A stretch of DNA of 41,404 nt from the UHGV virus genome UHGV-1357019, one strand, 5' to 3'. The notes below the pieces were generated by a model, which saw nothing but the letters and a program-made list of their open reading frames with translations, had not been told where the DNA came from and did not search any database. Shown in pieces: positions 1,969 through 35,448 of the stretch; the stretch's first letter is position 1, and every line of letters starts with the position of its first letter. The position numbers were made by a program, and so were the translations under genes. The DNA is from a virus.

Positions 1969-2205
1969 TTGTTTGAAGTAAGTAATAAAGCTCTAGACTT
2001 ATCGACGAAGTGGTTATTACTGAGACGGAAACTTTCGGCAAAGCAAAATTTGTTTCTAGAAATCATGACGTTTGCCTATATAGCTACGAATTCTAAAAAC
2101 AGCGGAATAGATATAAAAAAGACAACCAGAGAATCATTTGATTACAAAGGTCGATTAAAAAAAGACATTGTTTATGAAATGGTTGTTGATGTAGAGGAGG
2201 GATAG
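1969..2205 (+). CDS. hypothetical protein
   Basis: TTG start 1969 with AGGAGGTG RBS 5 nt upstream. Confidence 0.4.
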   Translation: MFEVSNKALDLSTKWLLLRRKLSAKQNLFLEIMTFAYIATNSKNSGIDIKKTTRESFDYKGRLKKDIVYEMVVDVEEG

Positions 2206-2206
2206 A

Positions 2207-3311: not shown

Positions 3312-3724
3312 CTAGGTATACATTGCATTTAGAACCAAAGCCACAATCTCGGCCACGTTTTGGACGAAACGGAACCTATGAAGGCAAAAAGATGAAACAG
3401 TGGAAGCGTAATTGCGAGAGTCAGCTTAGATTGATGAACCCTAAAATTATCGAGAAGGGCGCTATATTCGTCGCTATGACGTTTTACATCTATCCGCCTA
3501 AACGGATAGCCGAGATGAAAAAGAAACGCTTAGAACTCGAATCAGAGACGATTTACGTTGATAAGCGACCAGACATAGACAATTACATCAAAGCAGTTCT
3601 GGATTGCGGCAATGAAATACTCTTCAAAGATGATGGGCAGGTAGCTGCACTATCGTCACAAAAACTTTATTCGTTAAATCCGCGAATAGAAATTGAAATT
3701 ACAAGCTTGGAGGAAAACAAATGA
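3308..3724 (+). CDS. rusA: RusA-family Holliday junction resolvase
   Basis: Sequence [11 protein letters not shown]....IYPPKR....[27 protein letters not shown] matches the RusA endodeoxyribonuclease signature including the catalytic D-rich region. Confidence 0.75.
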
Positions 3725-4194
3725 TAAACAATGTGGTTCTAGTAGGAAGGTTAACGGCTGATCCAAACCTACGATATACGGCAAATGGCACAGGAGTAGC
3801 AACATTCACTCTCGCAGTGAACAGAAACTTTACCAATCAAGATGGTAACAGAGATGCAGACTTTATTAACTGCGTAATTTGGCGGAAGTCAGCAGAGACG
3901 TTAGCCAATTACGCTAAAAAGGGAACGCTGTTAGGTGTGATTGGCCGTATTCAAACAAGAAGCTATGAAAATCAGCAAGGACAACGTGTCTATGTAACAG
4001 AAGTAGTTGCTGAGAACTTCCAATTGCTTGAATCACGTAGTGCGAGTGATCAGCGTCAGAATACTAACGCCAGTACTAACTCAAATGGCAACTATGATCA
4101 ATCAAATAAAAATAGTGTGCCTGACTTTGGTAGAGATAACAATCCTTTTAGTGGTTCATCGATTGACATCGGCGACGATGATCTGACGTTTTAG
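3721..4194 (+). CDS. ssb: single-stranded DNA-binding protein
   Basis: OB-fold SSB N-terminus ([33 protein letters not shown]...), Q/N/G-rich linker and an acidic C-terminal tail DDDLTF. Confidence 0.85.
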
Positions 4195-4204
4195 GAGGGG
4201 TTAA

Positions 4205-4693
4205 ATGAGTAGACGTAAAACACCAGAACAACAAGCGGCGTGGAGCGAATTGTTATTATTGATCAATGATCCAGAGTGGTATTTAGACAGGGAAAAAAGT
4301 GATAGGCATAAAACGCTTATGAAAATCATATTAGCGGATGACAAAGACGACTCCTCAAAATCGAAAAAAGAAAAATATCAGGACTATTTGAACAAACGTC
4401 CAGGGATGGAGAAGAAAATAGTTGAAATGATTAGACAGGGGAAAACAATAGCTCAGATTCATGAGGTATACACGATTGATCGTAAGATATTTGCTTATGT
4501 GAGGCACAAACACCAGTTACCAAAATTTAGAAAGCTAGTGGTTCCTACTGCCGAAGAATTAGAAAAGTCATACAAAAGCGGCGGTTGGAAGAAAGCGAGT
4601 CGAGATTTTGGTGCGTCCCAAGGAACGATTTATCAATGGATGCGGAAATACGGAATTGAAAGAAACTATGTGATAAACGAAATGGAGGATTAG
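4205..4693 (+). CDS. HTH-containing DNA-binding protein
   Basis: TAGGAGGGG RBS; C-terminal HTH-like GASQGTIYQWMRKYGI. Confidence 0.45.
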   Translation: MSRRKTPEQQAAWSELLLLINDPEWYLDREKSDRHKTLMKIILADDKDDSSKSKKEKYQDYLNKRPGMEKKIVEMIRQGKTIAQIHEVYTIDRKIFAYVRHKHQLPKFRKLVVPTAEELEKSYKSGGWKKASRDFGASQGTIYQWMRKYGIERNYVINEMED

Positions 4694-4694
4694 C

Positions 4695-4937
4695 ATGCAT
4701 ATAGCAAATATCTACGGCGAGTCTATCGTGGGTGAAGAAATCGAATATCTAGATCAACCCTACAAAAATATTATTATCGTGGAGGATTCTAACGGTGACA
4801 AACACGTGGTTCACAAAGACACGATCGATAGGAATCGTAAGCGAAAACCAAGCCGTGCAGGAGTGAGGTTTGACCTTCTAGGTTGTCAGGCGCATGGAAG
4901 AAAAGGGACGTTGAGAAAGTGGCGGAGGATTGGTTAG
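4695..4937 (+). CDS. hypothetical protein
   Basis: GGAGGA RBS then ATG 4695. Confidence 0.4.
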   Translation: MHIANIYGESIVGEEIEYLDQPYKNIIIVEDSNGDKHVVHKDTIDRNRKRKPSRAGVRFDLLGCQAHGRKGTLRKWRRIG

Positions 4938-5194
4938 GACATAAGAAAAAGCTCCGCAAACTGGGGCTATCAAGTAGAAAGAAGGTGACCATCTTGCGGT
5001 CAATTTATCAAGTGACTTTTAGTAAAAAAGATAACAAAATGACTTGGGTCAAAGCGGTTGTAGCAACATCAGAGGAAAATGCAAAGAAAGTATTCGCAGA
5101 AGAAAATCAGTTTGAAGAAATTAAAGGTGTCAGGATATTAGGGAACGTAGTAGACGAACTAATGGACGATGGGATCGGATTTGAGAATGAATAG
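4883..5194 (+). CDS. hypothetical protein (start uncertain; TTG 4883 or TTG 4993)
   Basis: ORF overlaps the upstream ORF in another frame; best internal start is TTG 4993 with GAAGGTGA upstream. Confidence 0.3.
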   Translation: MSGAWKKRDVEKVAEDWLGHKKKLRKLGLSSRKKVTILRSIYQVTFSKKDNKMTWVKAVVATSEENAKKVFAEENQFEEIKGVRILGNVVDELMDDGIGFENE

Positions 5195-5227
5195 TTCCAC
5201 AAATGGAGGAGTTTGTAGAGGTGACCT

Positions 5228-5404
5228 ATGAACAAAAGACAAAGAAAAAAGAAACAAACTGAGGTAGTTTACCTTTTCAAGTGGAATGATGATGTGTCAT
5301 CAAAAATTTGGGTGAAAGGAAATCACAGAACGAAATTACTTTATAAGTTAGCGGTTAAGTACGGTTTATTGAAAATTGGTCGAGGATACAAGGACTTTTT
5401 CTAA
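5228..5404 (+). CDS. small basic protein (58 aa)
   Basis: ATG 5228 after GGAGGAG; MNKRQRKKKQTEV...; below the ORF-track cutoff; 3' end lies in a conserved intergenic element. Confidence 0.35.
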   Translation: MNKRQRKKKQTEVVYLFKWNDDVSSKIWVKGNHRTKLLYKLAVKYGLLKIGRGYKDFF

Positions 5405-5441
5405 GTCCAGTAACGAAGGCTATTAAGGAGGTATTTTAACA

Positions 5442-5627
5442 ATGGAAATAATTTTAGAAGTTGGTTACCGAGACAAGTATACAGCCAGACTACAAACAGA
5501 AGAAGTAGTAACAGAAGATGATGGTTACGCCTATGAATCCGCAGTGATGACCGTGTTAGAAAACTTGAGCGGACACGGGGCGGACATAAAAGATATAGAT
5601 GTTTGTTTTGTAAAAGAAAACAAATAA
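5442..5627 (+). CDS. hypothetical protein
   Basis: AAGGAGGT RBS. Confidence 0.4.
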   Translation: MEIILEVGYRDKYTARLQTEEVVTEDDGYAYESAVMTVLENLSGHGADIKDIDVCFVKENK

Positions 5628-5673
5628 AAGAAGTGAACTAACGGGCGGAATTAAATAGAAAAGAGGGTTCTGA

Positions 5674-5904
5674 ATGTCAGAGGAATATCCAAGATATTTG
5701 ATACTGGGTACGATAGAGCACGAACGCTATATGCAAGACGCATATTATTGTGGTTGGGTGACGCCTACACCTATTTTAACAACACTAAAACAAAAAATGT
5801 GCCGACATGAATTCACACTTTGGTGTACAAATGTGGGCGTGAAAGATGCACGGTTAACTTCGTATCGAAAATGTATGAAATGCGGAAAAGAAGAATTCTG
5901 CTAA
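5674..5904 (+). CDS. Cys-rich (zinc-ribbon-like) small protein
   Basis: CGW..CRHEF..C...CMKCGKEEFC pattern. Confidence 0.4.
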   Translation: MSEEYPRYLILGTIEHERYMQDAYYCGWVTPTPILTTLKQKMCRHEFTLWCTNVGVKDARLTSYRKCMKCGKEEFC

Positions 5905-5927
5905 CGGAGTCGTTGGAGGAAATAAAA

Positions 5928-6134
5928 ATGGGTTTAACAGTTTTTAAAATGGAATTTTATCATTTTGATAATACTTCAATCACGATGATGAAAAATAGTA
6001 AGTTTCTGTATAGCGTGGAAATTGTAGATGATAACGGCAGGTACGAATTTAGTAACGGTCTGACATTCAAAGAAGCAAAAGCGATTGTAGACAGTGAAAT
6101 TCAAACATTTGCAGATAAGTTGAAAGTCAATTAA
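5928..6134 (+). CDS. hypothetical protein
   Basis: In-frame ATG 5928 with GGAGGA RBS inside the longer track ORF 5820..6134. Confidence 0.4.
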   Translation: MGLTVFKMEFYHFDNTSITMMKNSKFLYSVEIVDDNGRYEFSNGLTFKEAKAIVDSEIQTFADKLKVN

Positions 6135-6161
6135 TGACAACTATCAGGGAGGAAATTAACA

Positions 6162-6521
6162 ATGGGAAGAAGCATAGATTTATACAGCTATGACTATGAA
6201 CCACTTGTAGAAGGAATCAAAGAATATGTTTCTGCTGATAACACAGAAGTTATCAGGAAAATTTTATCAGTAGGTGGCAGTGTTATTGGAGATAAGTACA
6301 TTATTCTAAATAATGAGCTTTGGGATGAATGCAGTCCTTACTACAATGTAGCTGGTGCATTGGAAAATTACTTTAAGGCAGAAGACGTTTTTGGAGAAAT
6401 ATTTTGTACCATGGACAATAAGTTCGGACATGCAGAGTTAATCAATGCATGTAATCCACCAGAAGAACTTCTCTATGAACTGAAACTGATTGAGGAGAAG
6501 GACGATGATACCGAAGTTTAG
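6162..6521 (+). CDS. hypothetical protein
   Basis: CAGGGAGGA RBS. Confidence 0.45.
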   Translation: MGRSIDLYSYDYEPLVEGIKEYVSADNTEVIRKILSVGGSVIGDKYIILNNELWDECSPYYNVAGALENYFKAEDVFGEIFCTMDNKFGHAELINACNPPEELLYELKLIEEKDDDTEV

Positions 6522-6912
6522 AGCTTGGTGGATACAAGATGAAGTGATGACACACATTGACACATTGGAGTTCTTGCAAGGTGGCATCAGGGTATCTGAC
6601 GGATGTTGGCATGAGAAATTTTTAGGTGATGAAGTCATTCTCATGCAGTCAACGGGATTTCATGATAAAAACGGTAAAGAAATCTTTGTCGGTGACATTG
6701 TGATTCACACACAAAAATCAATAAATTATGAAGACGTATACCATCATAGTTACGCAGAAGTGTTTCAACAGCAAAATGGTGCATACCGTATCAGAGGAAA
6801 AGACATATATGGAACCGATGCTTATGGTGCTCGAAAAAATTTGAAAGTGGTTGGGAATATTTACGAACATGCTGAGTTATTGAATAAGGATAGATTCATG
6901 ACTGAGGATTAA
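6505..6912 (+). CDS. YopX-family protein (paralog 1)
   Basis: MIPKFRAWW... N-terminus and VVGNIYEHAELL C-terminus characteristic of YopX; GAGGAGAAGG RBS; ATG 6505. Confidence 0.7.
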   Translation: MIPKFRAWWIQDEVMTHIDTLEFLQGGIRVSDGCWHEKFLGDEVILMQSTGFHDKNGKEIFVGDIVIHTQKSINYEDVYHHSYAEVFQQQNGAYRIRGKDIYGTDAYGARKNLKVVGNIYEHAELLNKDRFMTED

Positions 6913-6940
6913 AATTCCGTTAATCACGCCTACTAAGTAG

Positions 6941-6975
6941 ATTCCCTCAATCAATATACCTGATTGAGGGAGAGA
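6941..6975. terminator. bidirectional hairpin terminator between convergent genes
   Basis: CCCTCAATCA-atatacc-TGATTGAGGG perfect 10-bp inverted repeat between the + gene end (6912) and the - gene end (6981). Confidence 0.55.
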
Positions 6976-6980
6976 AAACG

Positions 6981-7205
6981 TTACTTATTTCTTTTACGAA
7001 TGAGTATTTTATCAAGTGTGTGGACACTTTGCTTTCCTATGACGAAAAATTCGTCCGGGAACTCCTTTCCTAATGATTTTAGCAGTTTGTAATCATTGTC
7101 AGTGAAATGAGAGAAGAATTCAGGAGCATTTTTCTTTTTAAGTGTATCTCCGCCAATTTTGTCTAATGTCTCATAGACAAACATTCTGAGTTCAAAAATA
7201 GTCAT
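6981..7205 (-). CDS. hypothetical protein (reverse-oriented moron, 74 aa)
   Basis: Minus-strand ORF with a strong AAGGAGGTG RBS 6 nt before ATG 7205; flanked by a terminator and a divergent promoter region. Confidence 0.55.
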   Translation of the reverse strand: MTIFELRMFVYETLDKIGGDTLKKKNAPEFFSHFTDNDYKLLKSLGKEFPDEFFVIGKQSVHTLDKILIRKRNK

Positions 7206-7320: not shown

Positions 7321-8079
7321 GTGAGAGCATTATCTCTTTTTTCAGGGATTGGCGGATTAGATTTAGCGGCAGAATGGGCCGGGATTGAAACTGTCGCATT
7401 CTGTGAGAACGCCGATTTTCCAAAAAAAGTATTGAAGAAACAATGGCCAACAGTGCCGCAGTTTGAAGATGTGAAACAGTTAGATATTCAGTTGTTAGAA
7501 AGTAGTGGGATAGATGCAAGAACAATTGGAATTATTCACGGAGGATTTCCTTGTCAGCCTTTCTCACTTGCAGGAAAAGGAAAGGCCGAAAACGACGATC
7601 GCTACTTGTGGCATGAGTTCGCAAGACTCGTCAAAGAAATTCAACCTCGTTGGGTTGTCGGCGAGAATGTACCAGGAATTCTTAACCGTGGACTCGAAAC
7701 AGCCATTAGTGACTTGGAAAAAGAAGGCTACGAAGTTTGGGTTTTCAGTGTTGCAGCTAGTAATATCGGGGCCATCCACAAAAGGCAAAGGTTCTTTATC
7801 GTTGCTTGCAACACCGACAGCCAGTCAATCATACAAGAGGATTCGCCCGCTTGCACCTTCAGAAGCGAACGGCAAGCATGGCAAAGTTCTTCCTGGAAGT
7901 CTTGGCGAGAATTTCGAGAGCTACATTGGAAAGTACCCGAACCCGGCATTTGTCGAGTGGATGATGGGGTATCCGGAGAATTGGACAAAAATAGATTGAT
8001 TGCTTTAGGGAATGCGGTCCAACCACAACAAGTTTATCCGATCTTTAAAGCAATCATGGAAATTGAAAACGGAAGCTAA
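7321..8079 (+). CDS. DNA (cytosine-5)-methyltransferase, apparently frame-disrupted
   Basis: Frame 1 has motif I FSGIGG, motif IV GFPCQPFS, motif VI ENV, motif VIII QRFFIVACN and motif X LGNAV; the expected motif IX (FVEWMMGYPENW) is encoded in the overlapping ORF 7514..7999, which ends at an A5 tract (7987-7991). Confidence 0.7.
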   Translation: MRALSLFSGIGGLDLAAEWAGIETVAFCENADFPKKVLKKQWPTVPQFEDVKQLDIQLLESSGIDARTIGIIHGGFPCQPFSLAGKGKAENDDRYLWHEFARLVKEIQPRWVVGENVPGILNRGLETAISDLEKEGYEVWVFSVAASNIGAIHKRQRFFIVACNTDSQSIIQEDSPACTFRSERQAWQSSSWKSWREFRELHWKVPEPGICRVDDGVSGELDKNRLIALGNAVQPQQVYPIFKAIMEIENGS

Positions 8080-24999: not shown

Positions 25000-25785
25000 G
25001 TGGAAGAATGGGAAAATCCAATGTATCAATTTAGAGACACAACGAAACGACCCGCTTACAAATCGTGGATTCCGACTTCTGCGATGATATACGGCGGTAC
25101 AATGATTGAAAAAATTATTCCCGGATACCAGACGCTATTCGTGGAAGGTCGCGAAATGCTGTCACTTGATTTGGAATCCGAGAAGAAGAATGTAGGGGTT
25201 CATATATCAGCACAGCGATTACCTGAACGCTCATTGATAATACACTACAAACTAACAGAGTCTAATCCAGTTGAGTTTCAGCGAAGCTTCAAAAAGCTGA
25301 TGCGAATTTTATACAAACAAGAAGATGTCGAGATTCATTTTAATGATGAACTCGACACTTTTTATTATGGCCGCTACTCTGCTGCAGAAAAAGTTCCAGG
25401 GAATACTGACAGCGTAGTTTCTAGTTACACAATTACTTGTCCAGATCCGCGAAAGTATTCAAGACAATTTGAAACAAACGGAGAAATATTCGAGTATATT
25501 CCTTACGACTCTGTTCCAGATTCAATAAGCTTTACTGCATCAAAAGACAACAGCGTCAAAGTGACGAACGGTCGACAAATAATTAGCATTTCAAATGCGG
25601 CTCTTAAAAAAGGTGATCGTGTCGAAATGTTAATCCGCGAGGGGAAAATACTGATCAACGGAGAGAACAAAACAAGAGTCCTTGATCTGACTAGCCCATT
25701 CAAAAGTTTCACTGTACGAACAGGAGAAGTTATCAAAAGTGACAACGGTACTCCTTTGATTAAGTATCGAGGGGTGTGGTTGTAG
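25000..25785 (+). CDS. distal tail protein (Dit)
   Basis: GTG start after GAAGGAGGA; position and size after the tape measure protein. Confidence 0.6.
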   Translation: MEEWENPMYQFRDTTKRPAYKSWIPTSAMIYGGTMIEKIIPGYQTLFVEGREMLSLDLESEKKNVGVHISAQRLPERSLIIHYKLTESNPVEFQRSFKKLMRILYKQEDVEIHFNDELDTFYYGRYSAAEKVPGNTDSVVSSYTITCPDPRKYSRQFETNGEIFEYIPYDSVPDSISFTASKDNSVKVTNGRQIISISNAALKKGDRVEMLIREGKILINGENKTRVLDLTSPFKSFTVRTGEVIKSDNGTPLIKYRGVWL

Positions 25786-28664
25786 TGGAAATTCTCGATA
25801 AAGATGTCTATTTCTTTGATGACAATCAAAAACTCATCAAAGTAGTAGGTGAAGAAAATTTATTCTCGAATATTCAAGAAATGGAAATCACACCAAACAA
25901 AGAAGAATTGATCAATGATAAGTTGTCAGTTAGTACAGAATTTGATGTTGAAATTAAAGATGCAGTTTATATGGCGGTTCGTGAAAGCGAGTCGTCTTTT
26001 TCTATGTACAAAATAGCCGGGATTGCCGATCCGGGTTCATTACTGATTTTTACGGGTGTCAACTTTGGCCCCGATGAACTAGAAGGCTTCATCATCAATG
26101 ATATTCGACCTGCGAATGAGTTCTTTCAAAAAACGATTCAACGAGTCATCGACTATACGTCAGGTGAGTGGCGCGTTGGTTACTTGGATTCAACTCTTCC
26201 TAAAGTATCAATGAATTTTTATTACTGCAGTGTTCGCGAAGCACTGAAAATGCTCCAAACGTTAGGTTGCGAGATTCTTTTTAAATGCAATCTTACTGGT
26301 GAAGGGATCACTGACAAGTGGATTGAAGTTCATCGGCAAATCGGTGAATACAGTAATGAACGATACGATTACGGCGATAAAGCTTTAACAATTGAAAAAG
26401 AAGTCAACCGAAGTAATCTATTTACTTCTTTAATTGGGAGAGGTAAAGGAGAAGAAGTGGGGGACGGTTATGGTCGCCGCATTGAGTTTGATCAAGTCTA
26501 TTGGTCTAAGTCAAAAGGTGATCCGCTCAACAAACCGACAGGTCAAATCAATTTGGAAATTCCTGAAATGACCGCAAAGTACGGTATTCCAACAAAAAAT
26601 GGAAAACGTCGCAAACGAGAAAAAGTAGTCATTTTTGAAGACTGCGAGGAACCGAATGAACTGATTCAGCTCACCTATCAAGAACTGGTGAACTGCTCAA
26701 GACCGCTCGTTCAATTCAAGTCGACTATTTTTGGCGCGGATAAGTTAGGTAATACTATACGGATTCATCGAGAAGATCGCGGCTATCACTATGAAACACG
26801 AATCTTCAGCGTGAAGATTAACCGTTTAACCGGGAAAGTAGATACAGGATTAGGCGACAATTTGAATAATTCTGCTACTCGTCAAGCGTCTAATGTTCAG
26901 AACTCCTTGCAAACTCTGGATGATACTAAAATGACCTTTTATGAATCTACCGAAGTGTCCAAGTTTCAATCTGATATTATCCGCGGTGCAAAAGGCGGAT
27001 CAATTATCATGATGAACCCATCCGATACAGGAAAAGGAACTTCAAGGCAGCCTTATCAGATGGTTTGGATGAATGGCGATTCGATTGCCACTTCTAATCA
27101 TTTTCTTGTTGCGAATTCGGAAGGTATCGGCTTCATTGATGGAAAGTTTAACGAAGCCAATTTCAAGACCGCATGGACCATTGACGGTAATTTCAATGCG
27201 AACTATATCCAGTCAGGGCGTATTAGGGCTGATATTTTTGAAACTTCATTTAATGCTGTGGGTGATCAATTAAAGCTCGTAAAAGGTGCATTGCAGGTCG
27301 TTAACAGTAATAAAAAAATAATGGAGCTAACGAAAAAAGGAATGCAGTTTTGGAGTGGTACCAAAGAAATTGGAACGATCGGAACAACGGACTCTGCCGG
27401 CAATCCATTCCCTGATGCTTCAACGCCAACACCAATTCCTGATAACGCACTGGTAATCCGAACTGAAGGCAGCGGAAAGTACATTTTAATATCACCAAAC
27501 AAAGGCAAAGGATTTATCATGCTCGCAAACGGAACCACTATTCATAACGGTGATATGAATATTCAAGGCAAGTTGCGAGTATTTGGTGATTTAGATGTTC
27601 AAGGCAAACTAACCATCAAAGGTCAGGAAGTGTTTCCTGGTCAGGGTGGTGGTACTGATCCGGGAGGGGGCTGGAACGGAGAATACCCACCAGGAGTAAC
27701 TTCTCAAGCTGACAAGTTTGCTTGGGAACTATGGGTAATCCTTCTGTCTAAAGGGTACTCCAAAGCAGCTGCTGCAGGTATCTTGGGTAACGTTCAAGGT
27801 GAAGCAGGTGTTTCCATGAATCCGGATATTGCTCAAATCGGCGGGCCTGCCTACGGAATTGTCCAATGGGATGGGAGTGCCTATCCACTTGTTGGTTCTC
27901 CTACTTACGATGGCCGGACCTATGTCCAACGTTTAATGGCTGCAGCTGGTATCACAGAGGATTATCGAACAATGGCTGCTCAAGGTAAGTTGTTAGATTG
28001 GACGATGTACAACGGCCAGTGGTTAGGAATCGTTCAACCAACTACTCAAGCAGCATTCAAAGCAATCACTGATCCGTCTCAAGCAGCGTATGCATTTGAA
28101 AGAAACTATGAACGACCAGCAAATACACACCCTGAGCGTCAAGGATGGGCGGTAAATTGGTACAACAAGTTCAAAGATTTGGAAATTTCATCTGGTGGCG
28201 GTGGAAGTATTTTATCTACTGCGAAAAGTTTACTAGGTTATTTTCATTATTCTATGCCATTAAGAACGCAATTTGGTTCTGTTGAAAATCCAGACAGGAA
28301 CGGCTATGCCGATTGTTCTTCGTTCGTTTGGCTGGTTTTAACAAAAGCTGGGTATCGTACGCCACCAGGAGTTGGCTGGTACACAGGTTCCATGACAAGT
28401 GATGCACGTGGTGCTAGAAACTGGCTTACTGAGATTCCTCAAAGCCAAGGAAAAGCCGGAGACGTGTTGATTGTAAACCAAGGTGGCGGAGCTGGATCAA
28501 ATGGACATACTGCGATTCTAGCCGAGGATTGGCACGGCTATACTACATCCATTATCGAGATGGGCGGAATGCAATCTGGCGGTGTCGGAGTAGGACGCGT
28601 AGATATGTCGTTTGGTTGGTTATTAAATGGTGGCGATGTATGTATAGCAAGAGCGAAGAAATAG
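25776..28664 (+). CDS. tail-associated lysin (Tal) with lysozyme-like and NlpC/P60-CHAP-like domains
   Basis: 962 aa after Dit; glycoside-hydrolase-like segment ILGNVQGEAGVSMNPDIAQIGGPAYGIVQWDG; C-terminal Cys/His peptidase segment (YADCSSFVWLV...NGHTAILAED); Gly-rich linkers. Confidence 0.7.
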   Translation: MVVVEILDKDVYFFDDNQKLIKVVGEENLFSNIQEMEITPNKEELINDKLSVSTEFDVEIKDAVYMAVRESESSFSMYKIAGIADPGSLLIFTGVNFGPDELEGFIINDIRPANEFFQKTIQRVIDYTSGEWRVGYLDSTLPKVSMNFYYCSVREALKMLQTLGCEILFKCNLTGEGITDKWIEVHRQIGEYSNERYDYGDKALTIEKEVNRSNLFTSLIGRGKGEEVGDGYGRRIEFDQVYWSKSKGDPLNKPTGQINLEIPEMTAKYGIPTKNGKRRKREKVVIFEDCEEPNELIQLTYQELVNCSRPLVQFKSTIFGADKLGNTIRIHREDRGYHYETRIFSVKINRLTGKVDTGLGDNLNNSATRQASNVQNSLQTLDDTKMTFYESTEVSKFQSDIIRGAKGGSIIMMNPSDTGKGTSRQPYQMVWMNGDSIATSNHFLVANSEGIGFIDGKFNEANFKTAWTIDGNFNANYIQSGRIRADIFETSFNAVGDQLKLVKGALQVVNSNKKIMELTKKGMQFWSGTKEIGTIGTTDSAGNPFPDASTPTPIPDNALVIRTEGSGKYILISPNKGKGFIMLANGTTIHNGDMNIQGKLRVFGDLDVQGKLTIKGQEVFPGQGGGTDPGGGWNGEYPPGVTSQADKFAWELWVILLSKGYSKAAAAGILGNVQGEAGVSMNPDIAQIGGPAYGIVQWDGSAYPLVGSPTYDGRTYVQRLMAAAGITEDYRTMAAQGKLLDWTMYNGQWLGIVQPTTQAAFKAITDPSQAAYAFERNYERPANTHPERQGWAVNWYNKFKDLEISSGGGGSILSTAKSLLGYFHYSMPLRTQFGSVENPDRNGYADCSSFVWLVLTKAGYRTPPGVGWYTGSMTSDARGARNWLTEIPQSQGKAGDVLIVNQGGGAGSNGHTAILAEDWHGYTTSIIEMGGMQSGGVGVGRVDMSFGWLLNGGDVCIARAKK

Positions 28665-28674: not shown

Positions 28675-29181
28675 GTGATAGATAGAAAAGGATTGAATCA
28701 TTTAAAAAGTTTGATGAATCAGCCAGTTGGCAATCATCAATGTTATGCGCTTAGTGCGGAATACGCTGGTGTAATGATCGGACCAGATATGGGAGCTGGT
28801 ACAAAGTATGAAATCAAAGTGAGGTATGGCAATGTTTTTTCTGCTGCTGATATTGGTTCTGCTTACCAATGGCCGCTTTATCTTTGGTCAGTAATCGAAG
28901 AACCCAGCTACGATCAACTAGTAGTCGGAGCGATTATTAATTGGAAGCGCGGAGCAAAGGTAGCTAATTGGTGCGCATCACAAGCTTTTGGGCACACCGG
29001 AGTAATCAGAGGGCTTGAAAATGATCGCGTTCAAACTTATGAACAAAACGCTGAATCAGGAGAGATTGTCGCTGAATACGATAGAGAGTTTTTTGACTCT
29101 GATCAAATCGCATCTATTTGTATCCCGCCTGATTTTGAGAGAGGAGTGATGAATATATGGCAAAATGGAACGTTTCACTAA
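28675..29181 (+). CDS. CHAP-domain protein
   Basis: Cys (NHQCYALSAEYAG) and His (FGHTGVI) in CHAP-like spacing; GTG start after AGAGGTGA. Confidence 0.5.
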   Translation: MIDRKGLNHLKSLMNQPVGNHQCYALSAEYAGVMIGPDMGAGTKYEIKVRYGNVFSAADIGSAYQWPLYLWSVIEEPSYDQLVVGAIINWKRGAKVANWCASQAFGHTGVIRGLENDRVQTYEQNAESGEIVAEYDREFFDSDQIASICIPPDFERGVMNIWQNGTFH

Positions 29182-30032
29182 GCACAACTGATAGCTTCAA
29201 TTATGTTGGCATTATGACGGTTCGAAATGGTAACCGGAATTCGGAAGTCATGGAAGCCTTGATCACTGAGAATGGTAAACCATATGATCTGACAGGATGT
29301 AAAGCCTACTTTGAAGCAATTTTGACTAATGACTCTGCGGTGCAGCGATCAGCAAAAATCATCGATGCGAAGAACGGGAAAGTACAGTACACATTCGATG
29401 AGTATTCAATGCAAGCTATTCATAGGCAAACAGCGAACCTAGTCTTTTACAAAGGTGATGACTTGATTGCTACAACTCAAGACTTCACCTATTTTGTTGT
29501 TCGAGCTGTTTCGAAAACTGAGGCTGAAATGGGTAGTTACTGGCAAACGGTGGAAGATCTTATCGCAGACATGATGGAATACATCAATAGTGGGAAAGGT
29601 GATTTCGATCAGTGGATGAAAGATCGAAAAGATGAGTTCGAAAAATGGCGAGATGCTCAGCAAAACGATTACAACACTTGGTTCGAATCCATTAAGAATA
29701 TCCTAGCCCAAATTGATCCAGGAGGTACAATGCTTCTCGAATTGATGGATGCACGTGTCGATCTACAAGGAGTCCGGCATGAGTCAATTTCAAAACGTTT
29801 AATCGCAGACTTTAATTACTTATACCAAAAACTTAGATCATCGCTTTTTACAATTGAATACGGAGAATTTGAAATGGTCGATATACTGCAAGACGATCTG
29901 TTTTCAAAAAATCATGAGGTAGAGAAGATTGGAACTATTAATAATTCAATCGAAGAAGGTGCATTAGTAATCGCAACCGTTGATGATCCAGTGCAAAATG
30001 TTTTCACCCTTGAGAAAGTCGGGGTGATTTAA
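29157..30032 (+). CDS. baseplate protein (BppU-N-like)
   Basis: N-terminus resembles the BppU N-domain of lactococcal siphophage baseplates; position. Confidence 0.45.
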   Translation: MAKWNVSLSTTDSFNYVGIMTVRNGNRNSEVMEALITENGKPYDLTGCKAYFEAILTNDSAVQRSAKIIDAKNGKVQYTFDEYSMQAIHRQTANLVFYKGDDLIATTQDFTYFVVRAVSKTEAEMGSYWQTVEDLIADMMEYINSGKGDFDQWMKDRKDEFEKWRDAQQNDYNTWFESIKNILAQIDPGGTMLLELMDARVDLQGVRHESISKRLIADFNYLYQKLRSSLFTIEYGEFEMVDILQDDLFSKNHEVEKIGTINNSIEEGALVIATVDDPVQNVFTLEKVGVI

Positions 30033-30034
30033 TA

Positions 30035-30829
30035 ATGGTCAAGTCGAAACGGATGATGGAAACGGATGAACACGGGGTGCAACGGCAGTTTATGCCAATC
30101 ACTCATGCTTCAGCCGTTATCGGGCTTGGAAAAATTATCGCAGGAGAAGCTAAGGTTCTTTCTGTTAATGGAAAAATCGGAGCTGTGATGATCACCAAAT
30201 CGGATTTAGGGTTAGAAAATGCTATTACGGAACTTCCCTATGCGAATGAAACCACAGATGGGATTCTTACTGCTGAAATGTATCAGAAGCTTTTGAACAG
30301 TGGCGAAGGTGACTATGTATTGCCAATTGCGGGGATAGACAAGCTTGGCGGTGTTAAGCTTGGGGATCTTTTAACCATTGACGAAACAGGGAAGCTGTCC
30401 GCCATAAAGCAAACGGACTACAACTTTACTCTTGAAATGAAGCAGAAGCTTGATTTTCTTCAAAATTATTCTGCAGGTCAAAATATCAACATCGATGCAG
30501 ATGGAGTTATCAGTGCAGTGATTGAGCCCGGCCAAGAGTACAATCTGCCAACAGCATCGGCTGAAGAAAAAGGTGGCATTAAGATTGGTAATCGCTTGAG
30601 TATTGATGAAGATGGGACTCTAAGTGCTGATCCACAATTTAACTATACAGCCGGTGCAAATATCAGCATCAGTAACACTGGTGTGATTTCTGCGACTGGC
30701 GGCGGTGAAGGTGGCGGAGTCAGTCAAGATTACGTTGATGAAAAAGCTTCCGAAGCCTATCAAAACGCCAAAGCTTATGCAGACTCTAAGATTCCGAGTA
30801 TGACGTTCGAAAAGGTAGGGGAGGTTTAA
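30035..30829 (+). CDS. tail fibre / receptor-binding module A
   Basis: Internal repeats GG(V/I)K(L/I)G..L(T/S)IDE.G.LSA; ends ...TFEKVGEV. Confidence 0.5.
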   Translation: MVKSKRMMETDEHGVQRQFMPITHASAVIGLGKIIAGEAKVLSVNGKIGAVMITKSDLGLENAITELPYANETTDGILTAEMYQKLLNSGEGDYVLPIAGIDKLGGVKLGDLLTIDETGKLSAIKQTDYNFTLEMKQKLDFLQNYSAGQNINIDADGVISAVIEPGQEYNLPTASAEEKGGIKIGNRLSIDEDGTLSADPQFNYTAGANISISNTGVISATGGGEGGGVSQDYVDEKASEAYQNAKAYADSKIPSMTFEKVGEV

Positions 30830-30833
30830 ATAA

Positions 30834-31193
30834 ATGACAGATATTGTAAAAGTGAAACAGGATGGGGCGCAGGTCTATCCTCAATCACATTGGGAGGCAA
30901 TCGAAGGCAAACCCACATTACTCAAAGGAGATAAAGGTGATCCGGGAAATGCTGCCACAATCACAGTAGGAACCGTAACAAGTGGAACGACTGCTTCAGT
31001 TACCAATGCAGGTACGACTTCAGCTGCAAAATTTAACTTTGTTCTTCCAAAAGGTGATAAGGGCGATCCTGGAACAAATGCTACTACGACTGCTGTTGCG
31101 ACAACTTCAACAAATGGACTGATGTCGGCTGCGGATAAGACTAAGTTAGACGGATTAAACAATATTACATTTGAGAAAGTAGGCGAAGTTTAA
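30834..31193 (+). CDS. collagen-like repeat fibre cassette protein
   Basis: Two GDKGDPG collagen-like triplet blocks; N-terminus MTDIVKVKQDG and C-terminus TFEKVGEV duplicate the junction sequences of the flanking genes. Confidence 0.5.
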   Translation: MTDIVKVKQDGAQVYPQSHWEAIEGKPTLLKGDKGDPGNAATITVGTVTSGTTASVTNAGTTSAAKFNFVLPKGDKGDPGTNATTTAVATTSTNGLMSAADKTKLDGLNNITFEKVGEV

Positions 31194-31687
31194 TGTCGGA
31201 TATTGTACAACTAAAAGAAGATGGCGTTGCAAAATATCTAAAGACACATGCCGATGCGATTGACGGTGTGGATGGTAAATTGGTTAAAGCAACTGGAAAT
31301 GAGACTATTTTAGGAGTAAAAAATTTCCAAGATGGTGTGCAGTCAAAAAGCAAAAATGTTTTGATCCAGAATGGTGAGAAGGTATATGATCACACAAGTG
31401 CCACAGACTCTTCAATCCAGTCTGGGGTAGTACGATTCGTTCGGTACGGCGATATGGTTTTGGTTAACTTTAACTTTCAATGTCGTTCAGCAAATATTAA
31501 CTCAGGTGGCAATCTGATTGGCAATTTAGAAACAGATATTATTCCTGCTTATTCGATTCAGGTTGATGTTACTGAAGATAAAGCATTGACTATTGATGCA
31601 TCAGGTAAAATTACCGCTCTTTGGGGATTAGATGCTAATAAGTATTACGCAGGATCTGCAATGTATTTTGCGAAGAACAAACTTTAG
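31193..31687 (+). CDS. tail fibre distal / receptor-binding module C
   Basis: N-terminus MSDIVQLKEDG homologous to the module-B N-terminus; start overlaps the upstream stop (TAATG). Confidence 0.45.
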   Translation: MSDIVQLKEDGVAKYLKTHADAIDGVDGKLVKATGNETILGVKNFQDGVQSKSKNVLIQNGEKVYDHTSATDSSIQSGVVRFVRYGDMVLVNFNFQCRSANINSGGNLIGNLETDIIPAYSIQVDVTEDKALTIDASGKITALWGLDANKYYAGSAMYFAKNKL

Positions 31688-31698
31688 GGGGATAGACA

Positions 31699-32073
31699 AT
31701 GAAAACAATTTATAAAGTGTTGTATCCATTAGGATATGAGCCGCACGAAGTGGAAGATGGCTTTCCAGTAGTTTTACCTTTTGTTGAAGTTAAACCGCTA
31801 GAAGGACTAAAAAATGTTCAATCTCAATTCTACAATTTTGCAGAGAAGAAATGGGAAGAAGCAGTCACACAAGATTATTCGAAGAAAATTGAATTATTGG
31901 AAAACATTTCTGCTGGGCTTCAAGTTGATAACACTGCTCTAAAAGAATCAAATGCGGTACTAACTGCTAAAACTGATTCGATGGCGCAACTTAATGCCAA
32001 ATTAATGCTGAATGATGTCGCAATCAATAAAGAAATTGAAACGCTAAAAACGCAAATCGGAGGTGCTGAATAA
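31699..32073 (+). CDS. hypothetical coiled-coil protein (fibre-associated)
   Basis: GGGGGA RBS; position before XkdX. Confidence 0.35.
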   Translation: MKTIYKVLYPLGYEPHEVEDGFPVVLPFVEVKPLEGLKNVQSQFYNFAEKKWEEAVTQDYSKKIELLENISAGLQVDNTALKESNAVLTAKTDSMAQLNAKLMLNDVAINKEIETLKTQIGGAE

Positions 32074-32201
32074 TGTTCACTTACACAGACGTTAAGATGA
32101 TGTTTGACTGGGGATGCTTCACAACGAAGCAAGTAAGGGAGTTTGTCCCAGACTGCATTACTGAAGCACAATTTGAGCGAATTACTGGAGAAGCCTTTTA
32201 G
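32073..32201 (+). CDS. XkdX-family small protein (42 aa)
   Basis: MFTYTDVKMMFDWGCFTTKQVREFVPDCITEAQFERITGEAF matches the XkdX pattern W..G..T..QV......IT..Q.E.ITGE; read manually (below track cutoff). Confidence 0.55.
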   Translation: MFTYTDVKMMFDWGCFTTKQVREFVPDCITEAQFERITGEAF

Positions 32202-34293: not shown

Positions 34294-35448
34294 TTAAAAA
34301 TCGACAAATTTATTGAATTTATCCGCTAATTTTTCTTTGGCCAATTTAGAAACATGGGCATACGTATTCATAGTTGTTTGTATATCCTCATGACCTAGTC
34401 TGAACTGTACTTCTTTTAGTGAGGCGCCCATTTCAATTAGAAGGCTTGCTTGAGTGTGCCTAAAACCGTGCACAGTTATTCTAGGGAGCTGCTTCTTTTC
34501 TTTCTTATCCATTTTATCCTGTACGTCCAATAGCCACTTACGCGACGTGTCAAGGCTCATAATGTCATGTGGATATTTTGCAGTCGCATTTCCAAATATT
34601 AACCAGTCTTCAGATGGAGGAGCTGCTTCAATTTTCCATTCTGAAAGTTTATCCAAGGTTCCTTGATCTATCGAAATGATACGACTAGAGCCAACAGTTT
34701 TAGTTGTGTCTAACTCCAAGCCATTCGCAGTTCTTGTTACTGCTTTATGGATGTTTACTGTTTTTTCTTCAAAATCAACATCTTTCCATTCCAACGCGCC
34801 AGCCTCTTGTTTTCTCATTCCAGTCATAGCAAGCAAACGAAAAAACGCTTGAACTTTGATATTAGGATGAGTGTACAATACTTCAAGAAACAATTTTAAT
34901 TGATCTTTATCGTAAAAATGTTCTTCAGTTGTTTTTCTTTTTTTAGTTTTGGGTTTCCGAATTGATTCTGTTGGATTAGAAGAAATCATTCCGAATCGAA
35001 TTGCATATTTGAATACTAGACCAGTGTAATTAATCATTTTGTTAGCTGTGGAATATTTAGCAGCCCATTTATCCATTAACTCTTGAATTTTAAGAGGAGT
35101 GATCTCAGAAATAAAAGTACTGCCAAGCTCGTCTAAAATGTGATTTTTGAAGATACGTTTTGTTTTCAAAAGAGTAGAGCCGCGCACCGTTTTTTCGTAC
35201 TCAACCATCCACATGTCATATACTTCTTGATAAGTTTTAGGTTTCTCTTTTTTAAAAAGATCACTTTCATAATCACTTTGTAGTCTAGCTAATGCCAGTT
35301 TAGCTTCACGCTGTGTCTTAAAGTTTCTACGAGTAGTTTTAACAGGTTTTCCAGTTGACGGATTGATACCAAGATAGGCTTGGAATTTCCAGCGTTTTTC
35401 GCCGTTCTTCATTTTGTACTGACTAAAGGTTGCCATTATTGAATCCAC
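34294..35448 (-). CDS. int: tyrosine integrase
   Basis: C-terminal catalytic motifs HGFRHTQASLL...LGHEDIQTTMNTYAHV (R..HxxR..Y) and a SAM-like N-terminal domain. Confidence 0.85.
   Translation of the reverse strand: MDSIMATFSQYKMKNGEKRWKFQAYLGINPSTGKPVKTTRRNFKTQREAKLALARLQSDYESDLFKKEKPKTYQEVYDMWMVEYEKTVRGSTLLKTKRIFKNHILDELGSTFISEITPLKIQELMDKWAAKYSTANKMINYTGLVFKYAIRFGMISSNPTESIRKPKTKKRKTTEEHFYDKDQLKLFLEVLYTHPNIKVQAFFRLLAMTGMRKQEAGALEWKDVDFEEKTVNIHKAVTRTANGLELDTTKTVGSSRIISIDQGTLDKLSEWKIEAAPPSEDWLIFGNATAKYPHDIMSLDTSRKWLLDVQDKMDKKEKKQLPRITVHGFRHTQASLLIEMGASLKEVQFRLGHEDIQTTMNTYAHVSKLAKEKLADKFNKFVDF

What the first reader, a model, noticed from the sequence alone, without database searches (positions are those of the whole stretch)
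30035..31687. Tail-fibre genes with a duplicated junction module (…TFEKVGEV-stop-M[T/S]DIV…K.DG…) flanking a collagen-like cassette
Gene A (30035..30829) and gene B (30834..31193) both end with the identical octapeptide TFEKVGEV.

- Gene B and gene C (31193..31687) both begin M(T/S)DIV(K/Q)(V/L)K(Q/E)DG.
- The DNA across the two junctions (about 30795-30880 versus 31160-31240) is recognisably repeated.
- Gene B consists largely of two GDKGDPG collagen-like blocks and Thr/Ala-rich spacers.
- Gene A carries three internal GG(V/I)K(L/I)G..L(T/S)IDE.G.LSA repeats.

This looks like a built-in homologous-recombination scaffold that lets receptor-binding cassettes be inserted, deleted or swapped. Gene B would be one such inserted cassette. 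It is an interesting host-range diversification mechanism to test in related phages.
Basis: seen in the sequence. Interest (0 to 1): 0.6.

Follow-up and report, generated by a model that had tools for sequence, protein, structure and literature searches.

The report
Coupled latch-and-tail junctions in phage fibre genes
The repeated gene-boundary motif is real. It marks four tightly coupled genes that build the host-recognition fibre of an Enterococcus prophage, and its conserved ends are where related phages swap fibre parts, so it is an informative variant of a known device, not a new mechanism.

Summary
**Observation.** It holds and is larger than reported. Three consecutive genes end in the motif, not two:
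- BppU-like anchor, 29157-30032: …TLEKVGVI*
- gene A: …TFEKVGEV*
- gene B: …TFEKVGEV*

**N-terminal motif.** Genes A, B and C each begin with a related motif. It matches the "latch" β-hairpin of FtbO/FtbP in the solved Listeria monocin side fibre (PDB 9j1l).

**Tail motif.** The tail peptide is dual-coded. Its K-V-G(-E) codons form the Shine-Dalgarno site of the next, abutting gene. The residues just upstream (Φ-T-Φ-E) are kept at the protein level.

**Gene identities.**
- A plus B correspond to monocin FtbO split into two polypeptides.
- C is a TP901-1 BppL-like receptor-binding protein.

**Comparative evidence.**
- All ~85 related Enterococcus loci examined keep the same four-gene order. None lacks B, so B is not an inserted cassette.
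- Module swapping is real. One relative has the B body replaced exactly between its latch and tail codons.
- The C heads (13 types) reassort freely, with breakpoints clustered at the B|C junction.

**Limits.**
- Within this genome the two junction copies share only 9 exact bases, which makes them a poor substrate for self-recombination.
- Whether C plugs onto B's tip or onto BppU is unresolved.

**Verdict.** This is a new variant of a known adhesion device, of moderate interest.

The parts
29157..30032 (+). BppU-like baseplate anchor protein (291 aa). It has an N-terminal BppU_N domain, a hinge (…MDARVDLQGVRHESISKRL) and a 76-aa C-terminal β-domain ending in tail copy 1.
   Evidence: Pfam BppU_N at 7.4e-31. 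TP901-1 ORF48/BppU (4v96) at 1.4e-16. The hinge aligns to monocin FtbN 76-102.
30006..30029 (+). Tail copy 1 (TLEKVGVI). It contains the Shine-Dalgarno site of gene A at 30012-30027.
   Evidence: anti-SD duplex of -13.7 kcal/mol, ending 7 nt before the ATG at 30035.
30035..30829 (+). Gene A (264 aa), the first part of an FtbO-like rod.
- Latch hairpin: aa 1-32
- SVNGK…DG..T stalk unit: aa 33-86
- Fibre repeats: aa 105-123 and 180-198
- Predicted coiled coil, then the tail
   Evidence: PDB 9j1l FtbO at 4.5e-12 over aa 2-85. Repeats located. phrog_9625 and phrog_22125 hits.
30803..30826 (+). Tail copy 2 (TFEKVGEV). It contains the Shine-Dalgarno site of gene B at 30813-30826.
   Evidence: -13.0 kcal/mol, ending 7 nt before the ATG at 30834.
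30834..31193 (+). Gene B (119 aa), the second part of the rod and a length-variable spacer.
- Short latch: aa 1-27
- GDKGDPG: 30927-30947
- β-module: 30948-31052
- GDKGDPG: 31053-31073
- NGLMSAADKTKLDGL: 31113-31157
- then the tail
   Evidence: phrog_6907 at 1e-39. The FtbO C-terminus aligns to aa 84-119 at 1e-5. Homologues range from 77 to 208 aa.
31167..31190 (+). Tail copy 3 (TFEKVGEV). It contains the Shine-Dalgarno site of gene C at 31173-31186. The B stop and the C start overlap (TAATG).
   Evidence: -9.9 kcal/mol, ending 6 nt before the ATG at 31193.
31193..31687 (+). Gene C (164 aa), a BppL-like receptor-binding protein.
- Latch: aa 1-26
- Conserved stalk motif KLVKATGNETILGVKNFQDG: 31277-31336
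- Variable β-sandwich head: about 31364-31684
   Evidence: AF2 model with pLDDT 82 overall and above 90 in the head. Foldseek matches TP901-1 ORF49 and p2 RBP at E 7e-6 to 1e-4, probability 1.00. Pfam BppL_N is weak, 13.8 bits. 13 real head types occur in relatives.
31699..32201 (+). XkdW-like gene (31699-32073) and XkdX-like gene (32073-32201). They follow the fibre genes, and the XkdW-like type travels with the C head type.
   Evidence: Pfam Phage_XkdX at 7e-15 and phrog_1536. C/W type linkage. Breakpoints at W+90 and W+225.

Best explanation
The repeated junction is the boundary signature of a translationally coupled four-gene operon. The operon builds the baseplate side fibre of a temperate Enterococcus siphophage.

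**The four genes.**
- A BppU-like anchor.
- Rod part 1 (gene A).
- Rod part 2, a collagen-like spacer (gene B).
- A BppL-like receptor-binding protein (gene C).

**Downstream half of each junction.** It encodes the N-terminal latch. This is the three-β-hairpin plug by which FtbO/FtbP-type trimers attach to their partner in the solved Listeria monocin fibre.

**Upstream half of each junction.** It encodes a short C-terminal tail with two layers of constraint.
- Its K-V-G(-E) codons are the Shine-Dalgarno site of the next gene. The genes abut or overlap, so the site must lie inside coding sequence.
- The Φ-T-Φ-E residues before it are conserved as protein, probably as a terminal β-strand.

**Wiring.**
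- A and B together equal monocin FtbO cut in two. B's latch therefore most likely plugs onto A's C-terminal tip, and the two form one rod. This step is inferred from homology and one natural fusion.
- C attaches either to BppU, as in TP901-1 and monocin, or to B's tip. This is unresolved.

**Consequence for evolution.** The ends are conserved and the middles are free to vary. The junctions, above all B|C, therefore act as crossover points where related prophages exchange spacers and receptor-binding heads.
For: **Homology to solved parts.**
- A aa 2-85 matches FtbO at 4.5e-12.
- B aa 84-119 matches the FtbO C-terminus, including its tail IALETIKEV, at 1e-5.
- BppU matches TP901-1 ORF48 at 1.4e-16.
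- The C model matches TP901-1 BppL and p2 RBP at E 7e-6, probability 1.0.
- The latch description and the FtbN/FtbO/FtbP architecture come from PMC11830787.

**A plus B equals a split FtbO.**
- FtbO 1-92 aligns to the E. faecalis A protein at 9e-16.
- FtbO 95-156 aligns to the B protein aa 38-104 at 3e-11.
- A and B are paralogues at 5e-8.
- P0074 is a natural A-B fusion that lacks exactly the internal tail and latch.
- In one lineage A is only 76 aa: a latch, one stalk unit and a tail.

**Embedded Shine-Dalgarno site.**
- Anti-SD duplexes are -13.7, -13.0 and -9.9 kcal/mol and end 6-7 nt before the start. This is like other genes of the window.
- The pattern holds in three other Enterococcus lineages and in monocin FtbO>FtbP (IKEV = ATT AAG GAG GTT).
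- Where the tail is longer (FEKVGEISG*, FEKVGEVQ*), the next start moves upstream and the spacing is kept.
- Where there is a spacer (C>W, FtbN>FtbO), the site lies in the spacer and there is no tail motif.

**Protein-level layer.**
- The tail ITFEKVG[ET]V is kept in Carnobacterium and Melissococcus.
- The tail VEFEKVKGDEEINA keeps FEKV although its Shine-Dalgarno site is the KGD codons.
- In BppU variants that read on into an Ig-like domain, FTLE is kept but KVG is lost.

**Exchange at the junctions.**
Against: - No complex could be modelled, so no tail-latch contact is shown.
- In the solved monocin, FtbP docks on FtbN hooks, not on the FtbO tail. Genomic adjacency of tail and latch therefore does not prove that they touch.
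- The AF2 model of the BppU C-terminal domain was poor (pLDDT 60) and gave no significant fold match. Similarity to the FtbN 'treble hook' rests on a 27-residue hinge alignment.
- The His pairs that bind iron in the FtbO stalks are absent from A and B.
- The covariation of A tails with B latches is confounded by tight linkage.
- The breakpoint counts come from related, non-independent loci.
Confidence: 0.7

Rival explanations
1. Fully serial plug-and-socket chain. Each C-terminal tail is the socket strand for the latch of the next protein. The fibre is then BppU→A→B→C end to end, with the receptor-binding head at the far tip.
For: - Every protein but the last has a tail, and every protein but the first has a latch.
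- The B tail and the C latch are the two most invariant elements across all lineages, while the C heads are exchanged.
- A-tail variants pair with B-latch variants: VEFEKVKGDEEINA goes with MPDLYVVKKDG, and TFEKVGEV goes with MTDIVKVKQDG.
- A can be as small as latch plus tail, 76 aa.
- The natural A-B fusion removes exactly the tail and latch.
Against: - Both solved relatives place the RBP on BppU/FtbN. In monocin the FtbO tail lies next to the FtbP latch in the genome but not in the structure.
- Invariance of the B tail is partly explained by its Shine-Dalgarno role.
- No B-C fusion was found among 247 B homologues or 72 C homologues.
Confidence: 0.3
2. The duplicated junctions are a built-in homologous-recombination scaffold that lets cassettes be inserted, deleted or swapped within a phage population, and gene B is one such insertion.
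For: - The B body is replaced between conserved ends in L015 versus L013.
- C heads reassort freely and breakpoints cluster at B|C.
- The junction is a ~60-nt island at about 0.9 conservation.
- Inside B, the two GDKGDPG blocks bracket a β-module that is absent from the minimal 77-aa homologue.
Against: - B is present in every locus examined, and the link count is always four.
- The junction copies inside this genome share at most 9 exact nt and are 71-79% identical over 24-33 nt.
- The conservation has independent functional causes: the latch domain and the Shine-Dalgarno site.
- Breakpoints also occur elsewhere.
Confidence: 0.15
3. The tail peptide has no protein function. It is only the translation of a ribosome-binding site that must sit inside the upstream gene, and it is shared because A and B are paralogues.
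For: - The Shine-Dalgarno pairing covers E-K-V-G in every abutting junction, with constant spacing to the start.
- There is no tail motif where a spacer carries the site.
- KVG is lost when BppU reads on into another domain.
- BppU tails drift in peptide (IEGV, EKVG) but keep AAGGT.
- AAG dominates the Lys codon of the tails of position-B genes across the related loci (59 of 69 loci, 5 of 7 DNA versions), although AAA is the commoner Lys codon in the structural genes of this window, 268:124. The window's own B tail uses AAA.
Against: - T-F lies upstream of the pairing and is invariant across genera despite synonymous change at Thr.
- Val is never replaced by residues that would give a better Shine-Dalgarno site.
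- FEKV persists 20 nt from the start in the A1 tails.
- The two window junctions place the Shine-Dalgarno core on different codons of the same octapeptide.
Confidence: 0.2
4. Programmed frameshifting or read-through fuses A, B and C into one long fibre protein.
For: The genes abut. Long single-chain fibres with the same head exist, for example the 572-aa protein of phage EFC-1.
Against: - The frames alternate 0, 2, 0, 2 and there is no canonical slippery heptamer.
- The overlap geometry differs between lineages (+4, -1, -4, -8).
- Each gene has its own start codon and Shine-Dalgarno site.
Confidence: 0.02

Closest known systems
Listeria monocin (F-type tailocin) side fibre FtbN-FtbO-FtbP, PDB 9j1l (PMC11830787)
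   Same: - The gene order is anchor, then rod, then RBP.
- FtbO and FtbP carry N-terminal latch hairpins.
- The A N-terminus and the B C-terminus align to FtbO.
- FtbO ends in a related tail (ALETIKEVIE) whose codons are the Shine-Dalgarno site of ftbP.
   Different: - Here the rod is split into two polypeptides, each with its own latch and tail. It is elaborated with fibre repeats, a coiled coil and collagen-like triplets.
- There are no His-X-His iron sites.
- The anchor has a BppU_N Ig-like domain, which FtbN lacks.
- The RBP head is BppL-like rather than FtbP-like.
Lactococcus phage TP901-1 / Tuc2009 baseplate (BppU, BppA, BppL; PDB 4v96)
   Same: - BppU_N anchor.
- C has the same size and layout as BppL: an N-terminal hairpin-like segment, a G(D/N)ETI.G.K.F motif and a β-sandwich head.
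- Accessory gene(s) lie between bppU and the RBP gene in Tuc2009 (from my own knowledge).
   Different: - The TP901-1 BppU C-terminal domain is a different, larger module and has no FEKVG tail.
- Two rod genes lie between the anchor and the RBP here.
Modular exchange of phage receptor-binding modules at conserved motifs. Examples are collagen-like repeats flanking VR2 in Streptococcus thermophilus phages and engineered TP901-1/p2 and Listeria RBP chimeras (from my own knowledge; PDB 3d8m appears).
   Same: - Conserved N-terminal anchoring parts with variable heads.
- Crossovers fall at the conserved stalk motif. EFC-1 carries the same head on an unrelated fibre, joined at TGDQEISGIKDFKDG.
- P0009-P0011 carry the head on a different anchor.
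   Different: Here part of the conserved crossover zone is a gene boundary, made of a tail, a Shine-Dalgarno site, overlapping stop and start codons, and a latch. It is not an in-frame linker.

Membership tests
BppU family (upper baseplate protein), for 29157-30032 | N-terminal BppU_N (PF10651) domain | tested here: met
   107 bits against a cut-off of 23.1. TP901-1 ORF48 at 1.4e-16.
BppU family | C-terminal domain that holds RBP trimers (TP901-1 type, or the FtbN 'treble hook') | tested here: inconclusive
   Only the hinge aligns to FtbN (E 0.002). AF2 gave pLDDT 60 and Foldseek found no match with E below 0.27.
Monocin FtbO-type rod protein, for A and B | N-terminal latch plus SVNGK-type stalk unit, by sequence | tested here: met
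   A aa 2-85 against FtbO at 4.5e-12. The A and B relatives from E. faecalis score 9e-16 and 3e-11.
Monocin FtbO-type rod protein | Paired His-X-His residues that coordinate iron at the stalk tips | tested here: not met
   There is no H-x-H in the A or B sequence. FtbO has HTH/HNH at 67-69 and 122-124.
Monocin FtbO-type rod protein | The latch docks on the tip of the preceding trimer | not testable with these tools
   No multimer prediction or coordinates were available. The docking is inferred from the A-B fusion P0074 and the split-FtbO alignment.
BppL / lactococcal-type receptor-binding protein, for C | β-sandwich head fold | tested here: met
   Foldseek matched 3da0, 3d8m, 3ejc, 4v96 and 1zru at E 7e-6 to 1e-4 with probability 1.00. 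The head alone gave TMt 0.75 against 4ios, on a model whose head pLDDT exceeds 90.
BppL / lactococcal-type receptor-binding protein | Pfam BppL_N N-terminal domain | tested here: not met
   13.8 bits against a cut-off of 25.8.
Collagen triple-helix repeat protein (PF01391), for B | A run of G-X-Y triplets detectable by the Pfam model | tested here: not met
   Window B gives no Pfam hit and has two runs of three triplets. Longer B homologues do carry PF01391.
Dedicated diversification system (shufflon, invertible or DGR-type cassette) | Long repeats with a nearby dedicated recombinase or reverse transcriptase | tested here: not met
   No repeat longer than 33 nt at 79% identity, and no strong inverted repeat, in 29000-32200. 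The neighbouring genes are lysis genes and the prophage integrase. No specific search for a reverse transcriptase was made.

The most novel reading that the evidence does not exclude
The tail-latch pair is a generic, portable non-covalent joint. It lets trimeric fibre segments stack in series (anchor, rod 1, rod 2, head). Some lineages would use orthogonal joint variants, and the B|C joint would be universal, so that any head fits any stalk. The same few codons would also enforce equimolar synthesis through translational coupling. If so, this would be a natural Lego-style system for changing fibre length and host range, and a ready-made engineering handle for Enterococcus phages and tailocins.
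Probability: 0.3. Interest if true: 0.55.

Novelty: new variant of a known kind. Interest (0 to 1): 0.35.

Why it matters
- **Annotation.** It gives a concrete, structure-anchored identity to three 'hypothetical' genes found in most temperate Enterococcus siphophages and in a chromosomal tail-like element of several Enterococcus species.
- **Engineering.** It shows where receptor-binding heads and spacers are naturally exchanged. The sites are the B|C boundary and the GNETILGxKNF stalk motif, which are the obvious splice points for retargeting enterococcal phages or tailocins.
- **Method.** A strikingly conserved C-terminal peptide can largely be the shadow of a ribosome-binding site embedded in coding sequence. 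It should not be read as a protein motif, or as a recombination signal, without checking this.

Tried and rejected
- **Megablast of the four genes against 50,697 phage records:** no match. Only tblastn found relatives.
- **Exhaustive HMMER search with gene A:** it was swamped by the ubiquitous LP.A…LGG[IV]K[VI]G..L.I…G.LSA fibre repeat (1821 hits). The long hits do not end in the tail motif. It was useful only for a few short latch-bearing relatives and the A-B fusion.
- **Search for B-C or A-C fusions that would settle where C docks:** none among 72 C homologues and 247 B homologues.
- **AF2 of the BppU C-terminal domain:** pLDDT 60 and no significant Foldseek match. It is uninformative.
- **Covariation of the C latch with BppU versus the B tail:** uninformative, because the C latch is nearly invariant and linkage confounds the comparison.
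- **Genome-collection scan with a latch alignment:** only one usable pattern and 13 loci, all Enterococcus. The distribution outside the genus therefore rests on protein hits (Carnobacterium, Melissococcus, Listeria).
- **Literature search for the motif letters FEKVGE, FEKIGE and TFEKVG:** no paper.
- **Frameshift or read-through fusion:** rejected on frame pattern and variable overlap geometry.
- **P0100, an apparent BppU-A fusion:** it looks like a decayed pseudogene and was not used as evidence.
Full report
**1. What is in the sequence**

- A, 30035-30829, ends TFEKVGEV*.
- B, 30834-31193, ends TFEKVGEV* and begins MTDIVKVKQDG.
- C, 31193-31687, begins MSDIVQLKEDG.

- The gene upstream (29157-30032) ends FTLEKVGVI*.
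- Gene A begins with a longer form of the same N-terminal motif (MVKSKRMMETDEHGVQRQFMPITHASAVIGL).
- A regular expression for the tail finds just these three sites on the coding strand of the six-frame translation, each followed at once by a stop codon.

At the DNA level the repeat is weak.
- The tails match at 17-19 of 24 nt.
- The gene starts match at 79% over 33 nt.
- The longest exact word shared by the two junctions is 9 nt.
- Five of the seven FEKVGEV codons differ synonymously between A and B.

Two details of the finding need correction.
- Gene A has two full GG[VI]K[LI]G…LSA repeats plus two half-repeats, not three.
- Gene B has two three-triplet GDKGDPG blocks around a 35-residue β-rich module.

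**2. What the genes are**

- The upstream gene has a BppU N-terminal domain (Pfam 7e-31). It matches TP901-1 ORF48/BppU in the PDB (1.4e-16).
- Gene A aa 2-85 match FtbO of the Listeria monocin side fibre (PDB 9j1l, 4.5e-12).
- The last 36 residues of gene B match the last 36 of FtbO, including its tail …IALETIKEV (1e-5).
- An AlphaFold model of C (pLDDT 82, head above 90) matches the receptor-binding proteins of lactococcal phages TP901-1 and p2 (Foldseek E 7e-6 to 1e-4, probability 1.00).
- Downstream lie XkdW-like and XkdX-like genes, a holin, a lysin and the integrase.

The locus is therefore the adhesion-device module of a temperate Enterococcus siphophage. The closest C and B homologues come from E. 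malodoratus, E. gilvus, E. raffinosus, E. faecium, E. hirae and E. durans.

**3. The N-terminal half of the junction is a known structural element**

The monocin paper (PMC11830787) describes each side fibre as follows.
- An FtbN trimer whose C-terminus forms a 'treble hook'.
- One FtbO trimer attached at the centre through an N-terminal 'O-latch' of three β-hairpins.
- Three FtbP (RBP) trimers attached to the peripheral hooks through a similar 'P-latch', by β-sheet complementation.

In the monocin locus (L083), FtbO and FtbP begin as follows.
- FtbO: MTEIKRMLQTKEDNSKEQFYPETHVAGIVGL
- FtbP: MTKIVKMSEKNEHGTLEQFYPETHAEAVKGL

These align with the starts of A, B and C. The M(T/S)DIV..K.DG motif is therefore the latch.

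**4. A plus B is FtbO cut in two**

In the E. faecalis relatives, A and B are each 105 aa and consist of a latch, one SVNGxxGxV…DG..S stalk unit and a tail.
- FtbO 1-92 aligns to that A (9e-16).
- FtbO 95-156 aligns to that B, aa 38-104 (3e-11).
- The two are paralogues (5e-8).

Three further observations fit.
- In the solved structure, O-stalk 1 and O-stalk 2 are consecutive parts of one rod.
- A protein from the exhaustive search (P0074, 326 aa) is a natural A-B fusion. The A coiled coil runs straight into the collagen-like part of B, and exactly the internal tail and latch are missing.
- In a chromosomal element of E. caccae, E. termitis, E. rivorum and relatives, A is only 76 aa: a latch, one stalk unit and a tail.

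I infer that B plugs onto the C-terminal tip of A and that the two form one rod. In the window's lineage that rod is elaborated in two ways.
- A carries fibre repeats and a coiled coil.
- B carries collagen-like triplets, a β-module and a length that varies from 77 to 208 aa among homologues.

**5. The C-terminal half of the junction is dual-coded**

The genes abut or overlap (TAAtaATG, TAAataaATG, TAATG). The ribosome-binding site of each downstream gene must therefore lie in the last codons of the upstream gene.

Folding the 23 nt before each start against the 16S anti-SD gives the values below. Pairing covers the E-K-V-G(-E) codons and ends 6-7 nt before the start. Other genes of the window lie in the same range.

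| Junction | Anti-SD duplex (kcal/mol) |
|---|---|
| U>A | -13.7 |
| A>B | -13.0 |
| B>C | -9.9 |

The same pattern holds elsewhere.
- It is seen in two E. faecalis lineages, in the E. ikei-group element (tails FFLRKVGSV, ITIDKVGTV, ITFSKVGAV) and in monocin (IKEV = ATT AAG GAG GTT).
- Where the tail is longer (FEKVGEISG*, FEKVGEVQ*), the next start codon sits 8 or 4 nt upstream of the stop, so the spacing is preserved.
- Where a spacer exists (C>W, FtbN>FtbO), the site is in the spacer and the upstream protein has no tail motif.
- Across the related loci, AAG is the Lys codon in 59 of 69 tails of the position-B gene. AAA is the commoner Lys codon in the structural genes of this window, 268:124. 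The window's own B tail uses AAA.

This explains much of the invariance of K-V-G and its fixed position. The synonymous differences that at first look like proof of protein-level selection are in part alternative ways of keeping anti-SD complementarity (GAA AAG GTA GG versus GAG AAA GTA GG).

**6. The tail is not only a ribosome-binding site**

- The residues before the pairing (I/F-T-F) are invariant in B from Enterococcus to Carnobacterium and Melissococcus, despite synonymous change at Thr.
- Val is never replaced by residues that would give a stronger site.
- The A tails of one lineage (VEFEKVKGDEEINA) keep FEKV although their site is the KGD codons, 20 nt nearer the start.
- The two window junctions place the Shine-Dalgarno core on different codons of the same octapeptide: G-E-V at A>B and E-K-V-G at B>C.
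- In BppU variants that read on into an Ig-like domain (P0358, P0359), FTLE is kept but KVG becomes EVV. This is the split expected if Φ-T-Φ-E is structural and K-V-G is mainly the ribosome-binding site.
- A low-confidence AF2 model of the BppU C-terminal region puts NVFTLEKVG in the last strand of a small β-meander.

**7. Where C attaches is unresolved**

In favour of C docking on B's tip:
- The B tail and the C latch are the most invariant elements in all lineages.
- The B and C latches resemble each other.
- The A and B tails are identical in this genome.

In favour of C docking on BppU:
- In both solved relatives the RBP sits on BppU/FtbN.
- In monocin the same tail-stop-latch gene boundary (FtbO>FtbP) does not correspond to a physical contact.

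No B-C fusion was found, and I could not run multimer predictions.

**8. The recombination idea**

A scan of viral contigs with BppU gave 80 loci.
- In all 70 with a complete chain, the order is BppU-A-B-C-XkdW-XkdX.
- The same holds in 13 loci from species-representative genomes and in E. pallens and E. hulanensis prophages.
- No locus lacks B or has an extra link, so B is ancestral and not an insertion.

Exchange is nevertheless plain. Clustering at 80% identity gives these types:

| Position | Types |
|---|---|
| BppU | 3 |
| A | 4 |
| B | 4 |
| C | 14 (one is an artefact of a deleted C, leaving 13 real types) |

- A and B types are tightly linked, while C types occur on different A/B backgrounds.
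- Against the window, L013 switches from about 72% to about 100% identity some 80 nt before the end of A.
- L003 is about 99% identical up to the B|C junction and then diverges through the C head.
- L015 and L013 are 1797/1805 identical up to B+50 and 901/913 identical from 32 nt before the B stop. Between those points they are 183/274 identical with 156 gap columns. This is a cassette replacement bounded by the latch and tail codons of B.

The ends of segments sharing at least 96% identity, taken among 61 distinct loci, number 121.
- 74 fall within -90..+165 nt of the B stop.
- 28 fall about 390 nt before the BppU stop, at the conserved MDARVD hinge. P0378 shows a TP901-1-type C-domain joined at that hinge.
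- 15 fall in the XkdW-like gene.
- Only 4 are assigned to the A|B junction (two about 165 nt before the A stop and two about 45 nt after it), and none falls at U|A itself.

Across 47 distinct B|C zones, nucleotide conservation peaks at 0.89-0.93 over 31164-31223 and falls to 0.3-0.5 on both sides.

Heads also move onto unrelated fibres at the GNETILGxKNF stalk motif.
- The 572-aa fibre of EFC-1 carries such a head.
- P0009-P0011 carry the head on a different anchor.

The junctions, mainly B|C, are therefore real exchange points between related phages. The conservation that makes them so is imposed by function. The copies inside one genome are too diverged (9 exact nt) to make self-recombination likely.

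**9. Comparison with what is known, and novelty**

The following are all described: BppU/BppL devices, the monocin latch-and-hook fibre (2025), and modular exchange of receptor-binding heads. The points below are new as far as my searches show.
- A four-polypeptide version of the fibre in which the FtbO-type rod is split into two latch-bearing proteins. It is conserved across Enterococcus prophages and a chromosomal tail-like element.
- The recognition that the conspicuous C-terminal motif is largely an embedded ribosome-binding site.
- The map of natural crossover points.

No paper contains the motif letters. I rate this a new variant of a known kind, with interest 0.35.

Noticed in passing
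window 31699-32073 (XkdW-like) and related loci: The type of the XkdW-like protein travels with the type of the C head. Heads ending …YEW/YEY/YAI go with W2/W4, and the others go with W1/W3. Breakpoints lie at W+90 and W+225. This suggests a head-specific partner or assembly factor.
   Followed up: partly
L092-L102 (E. ikei, E. caccae, E. ureasiticus, E. plantarum, E. quebecensis, E. termitis, E. rivorum…), around 2200-7100 of each locus: A conserved tail-tip and fibre gene set: a Tal-like gene, a 291-aa BppU-like gene, a 76-aa A, a 94-112-aa collagen-like B and a variable C. It sits at a similar chromosomal place in many species. In the listed ORFs of three loci (L098, L099, L102) it is followed by two apparent ribosomal-protein genes flanking a small ORF (identified by eye, not searched), with no obvious lysis genes. 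It could be a tailocin-like element.
   Followed up: no
window 30347-30403 and 30572-30628 (gene A): The GG[VI]K[LI]G..L.IDE.G.LSA unit belongs to a very widespread fibre repeat (LP.A…LGG[IV]K[VI]G..L.I…G.LSA). The repeat occurs in 1821 representative proteins of up to 4450 aa, yet Pfam gave no hit for it.
   Followed up: partly
window 30927-31073 (gene B): The two GDKGDPG blocks bracket a 35-aa module (ATITVGTVTSG…FNFVLPK). The module is absent from the minimal 77-aa homologue (P0283) and occurs in tandem in other collagen-like phage proteins (P0291, P0310, P0317). It looks like an insertable unit inside B.
   Followed up: partly
window 29724-29780 (BppU hinge MDARVDLQGVRHESISKRL): The hinge is a second module joint. 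A cluster of breakpoints lies here, about 390 nt before the BppU stop. P0378 joins this hinge to a TP901-1-type BppU C-terminal domain.
   Followed up: partly
L084 3756-5474 (Enterococcus phage EFC-1): A single 572-aa fibre, annotated 'glycerophosphodiester phosphodiesterase', carries the same C5-type receptor-binding head as the four-gene phages. The head is joined at TGDQEISGIKDFKDG. The annotation looks wrong.
   Followed up: no
L065 about 7529-7680: One relative has most of gene C deleted, so the XkdW-like gene follows B almost directly. It is probably a defective prophage.
   Followed up: no
window 28675-29181 and 25776-28664: A separate CHAP-domain gene overlaps the BppU start by 25 nt. 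The 962-aa Tal upstream ends in a lysin-like region whose C-terminal sequence reappears fused to an A-type N-terminus in protein P0124. That protein is either a chimera or an assembly artefact.
   Followed up: no
window 34294-35448 (-) and the whole window: The integrase and lysogeny genes lie in the middle of the window, with early genes at both ends. The window reads like a circularly permuted or excised phage genome of about 41 kb rather than a prophage with host flanks.
   Followed up: no
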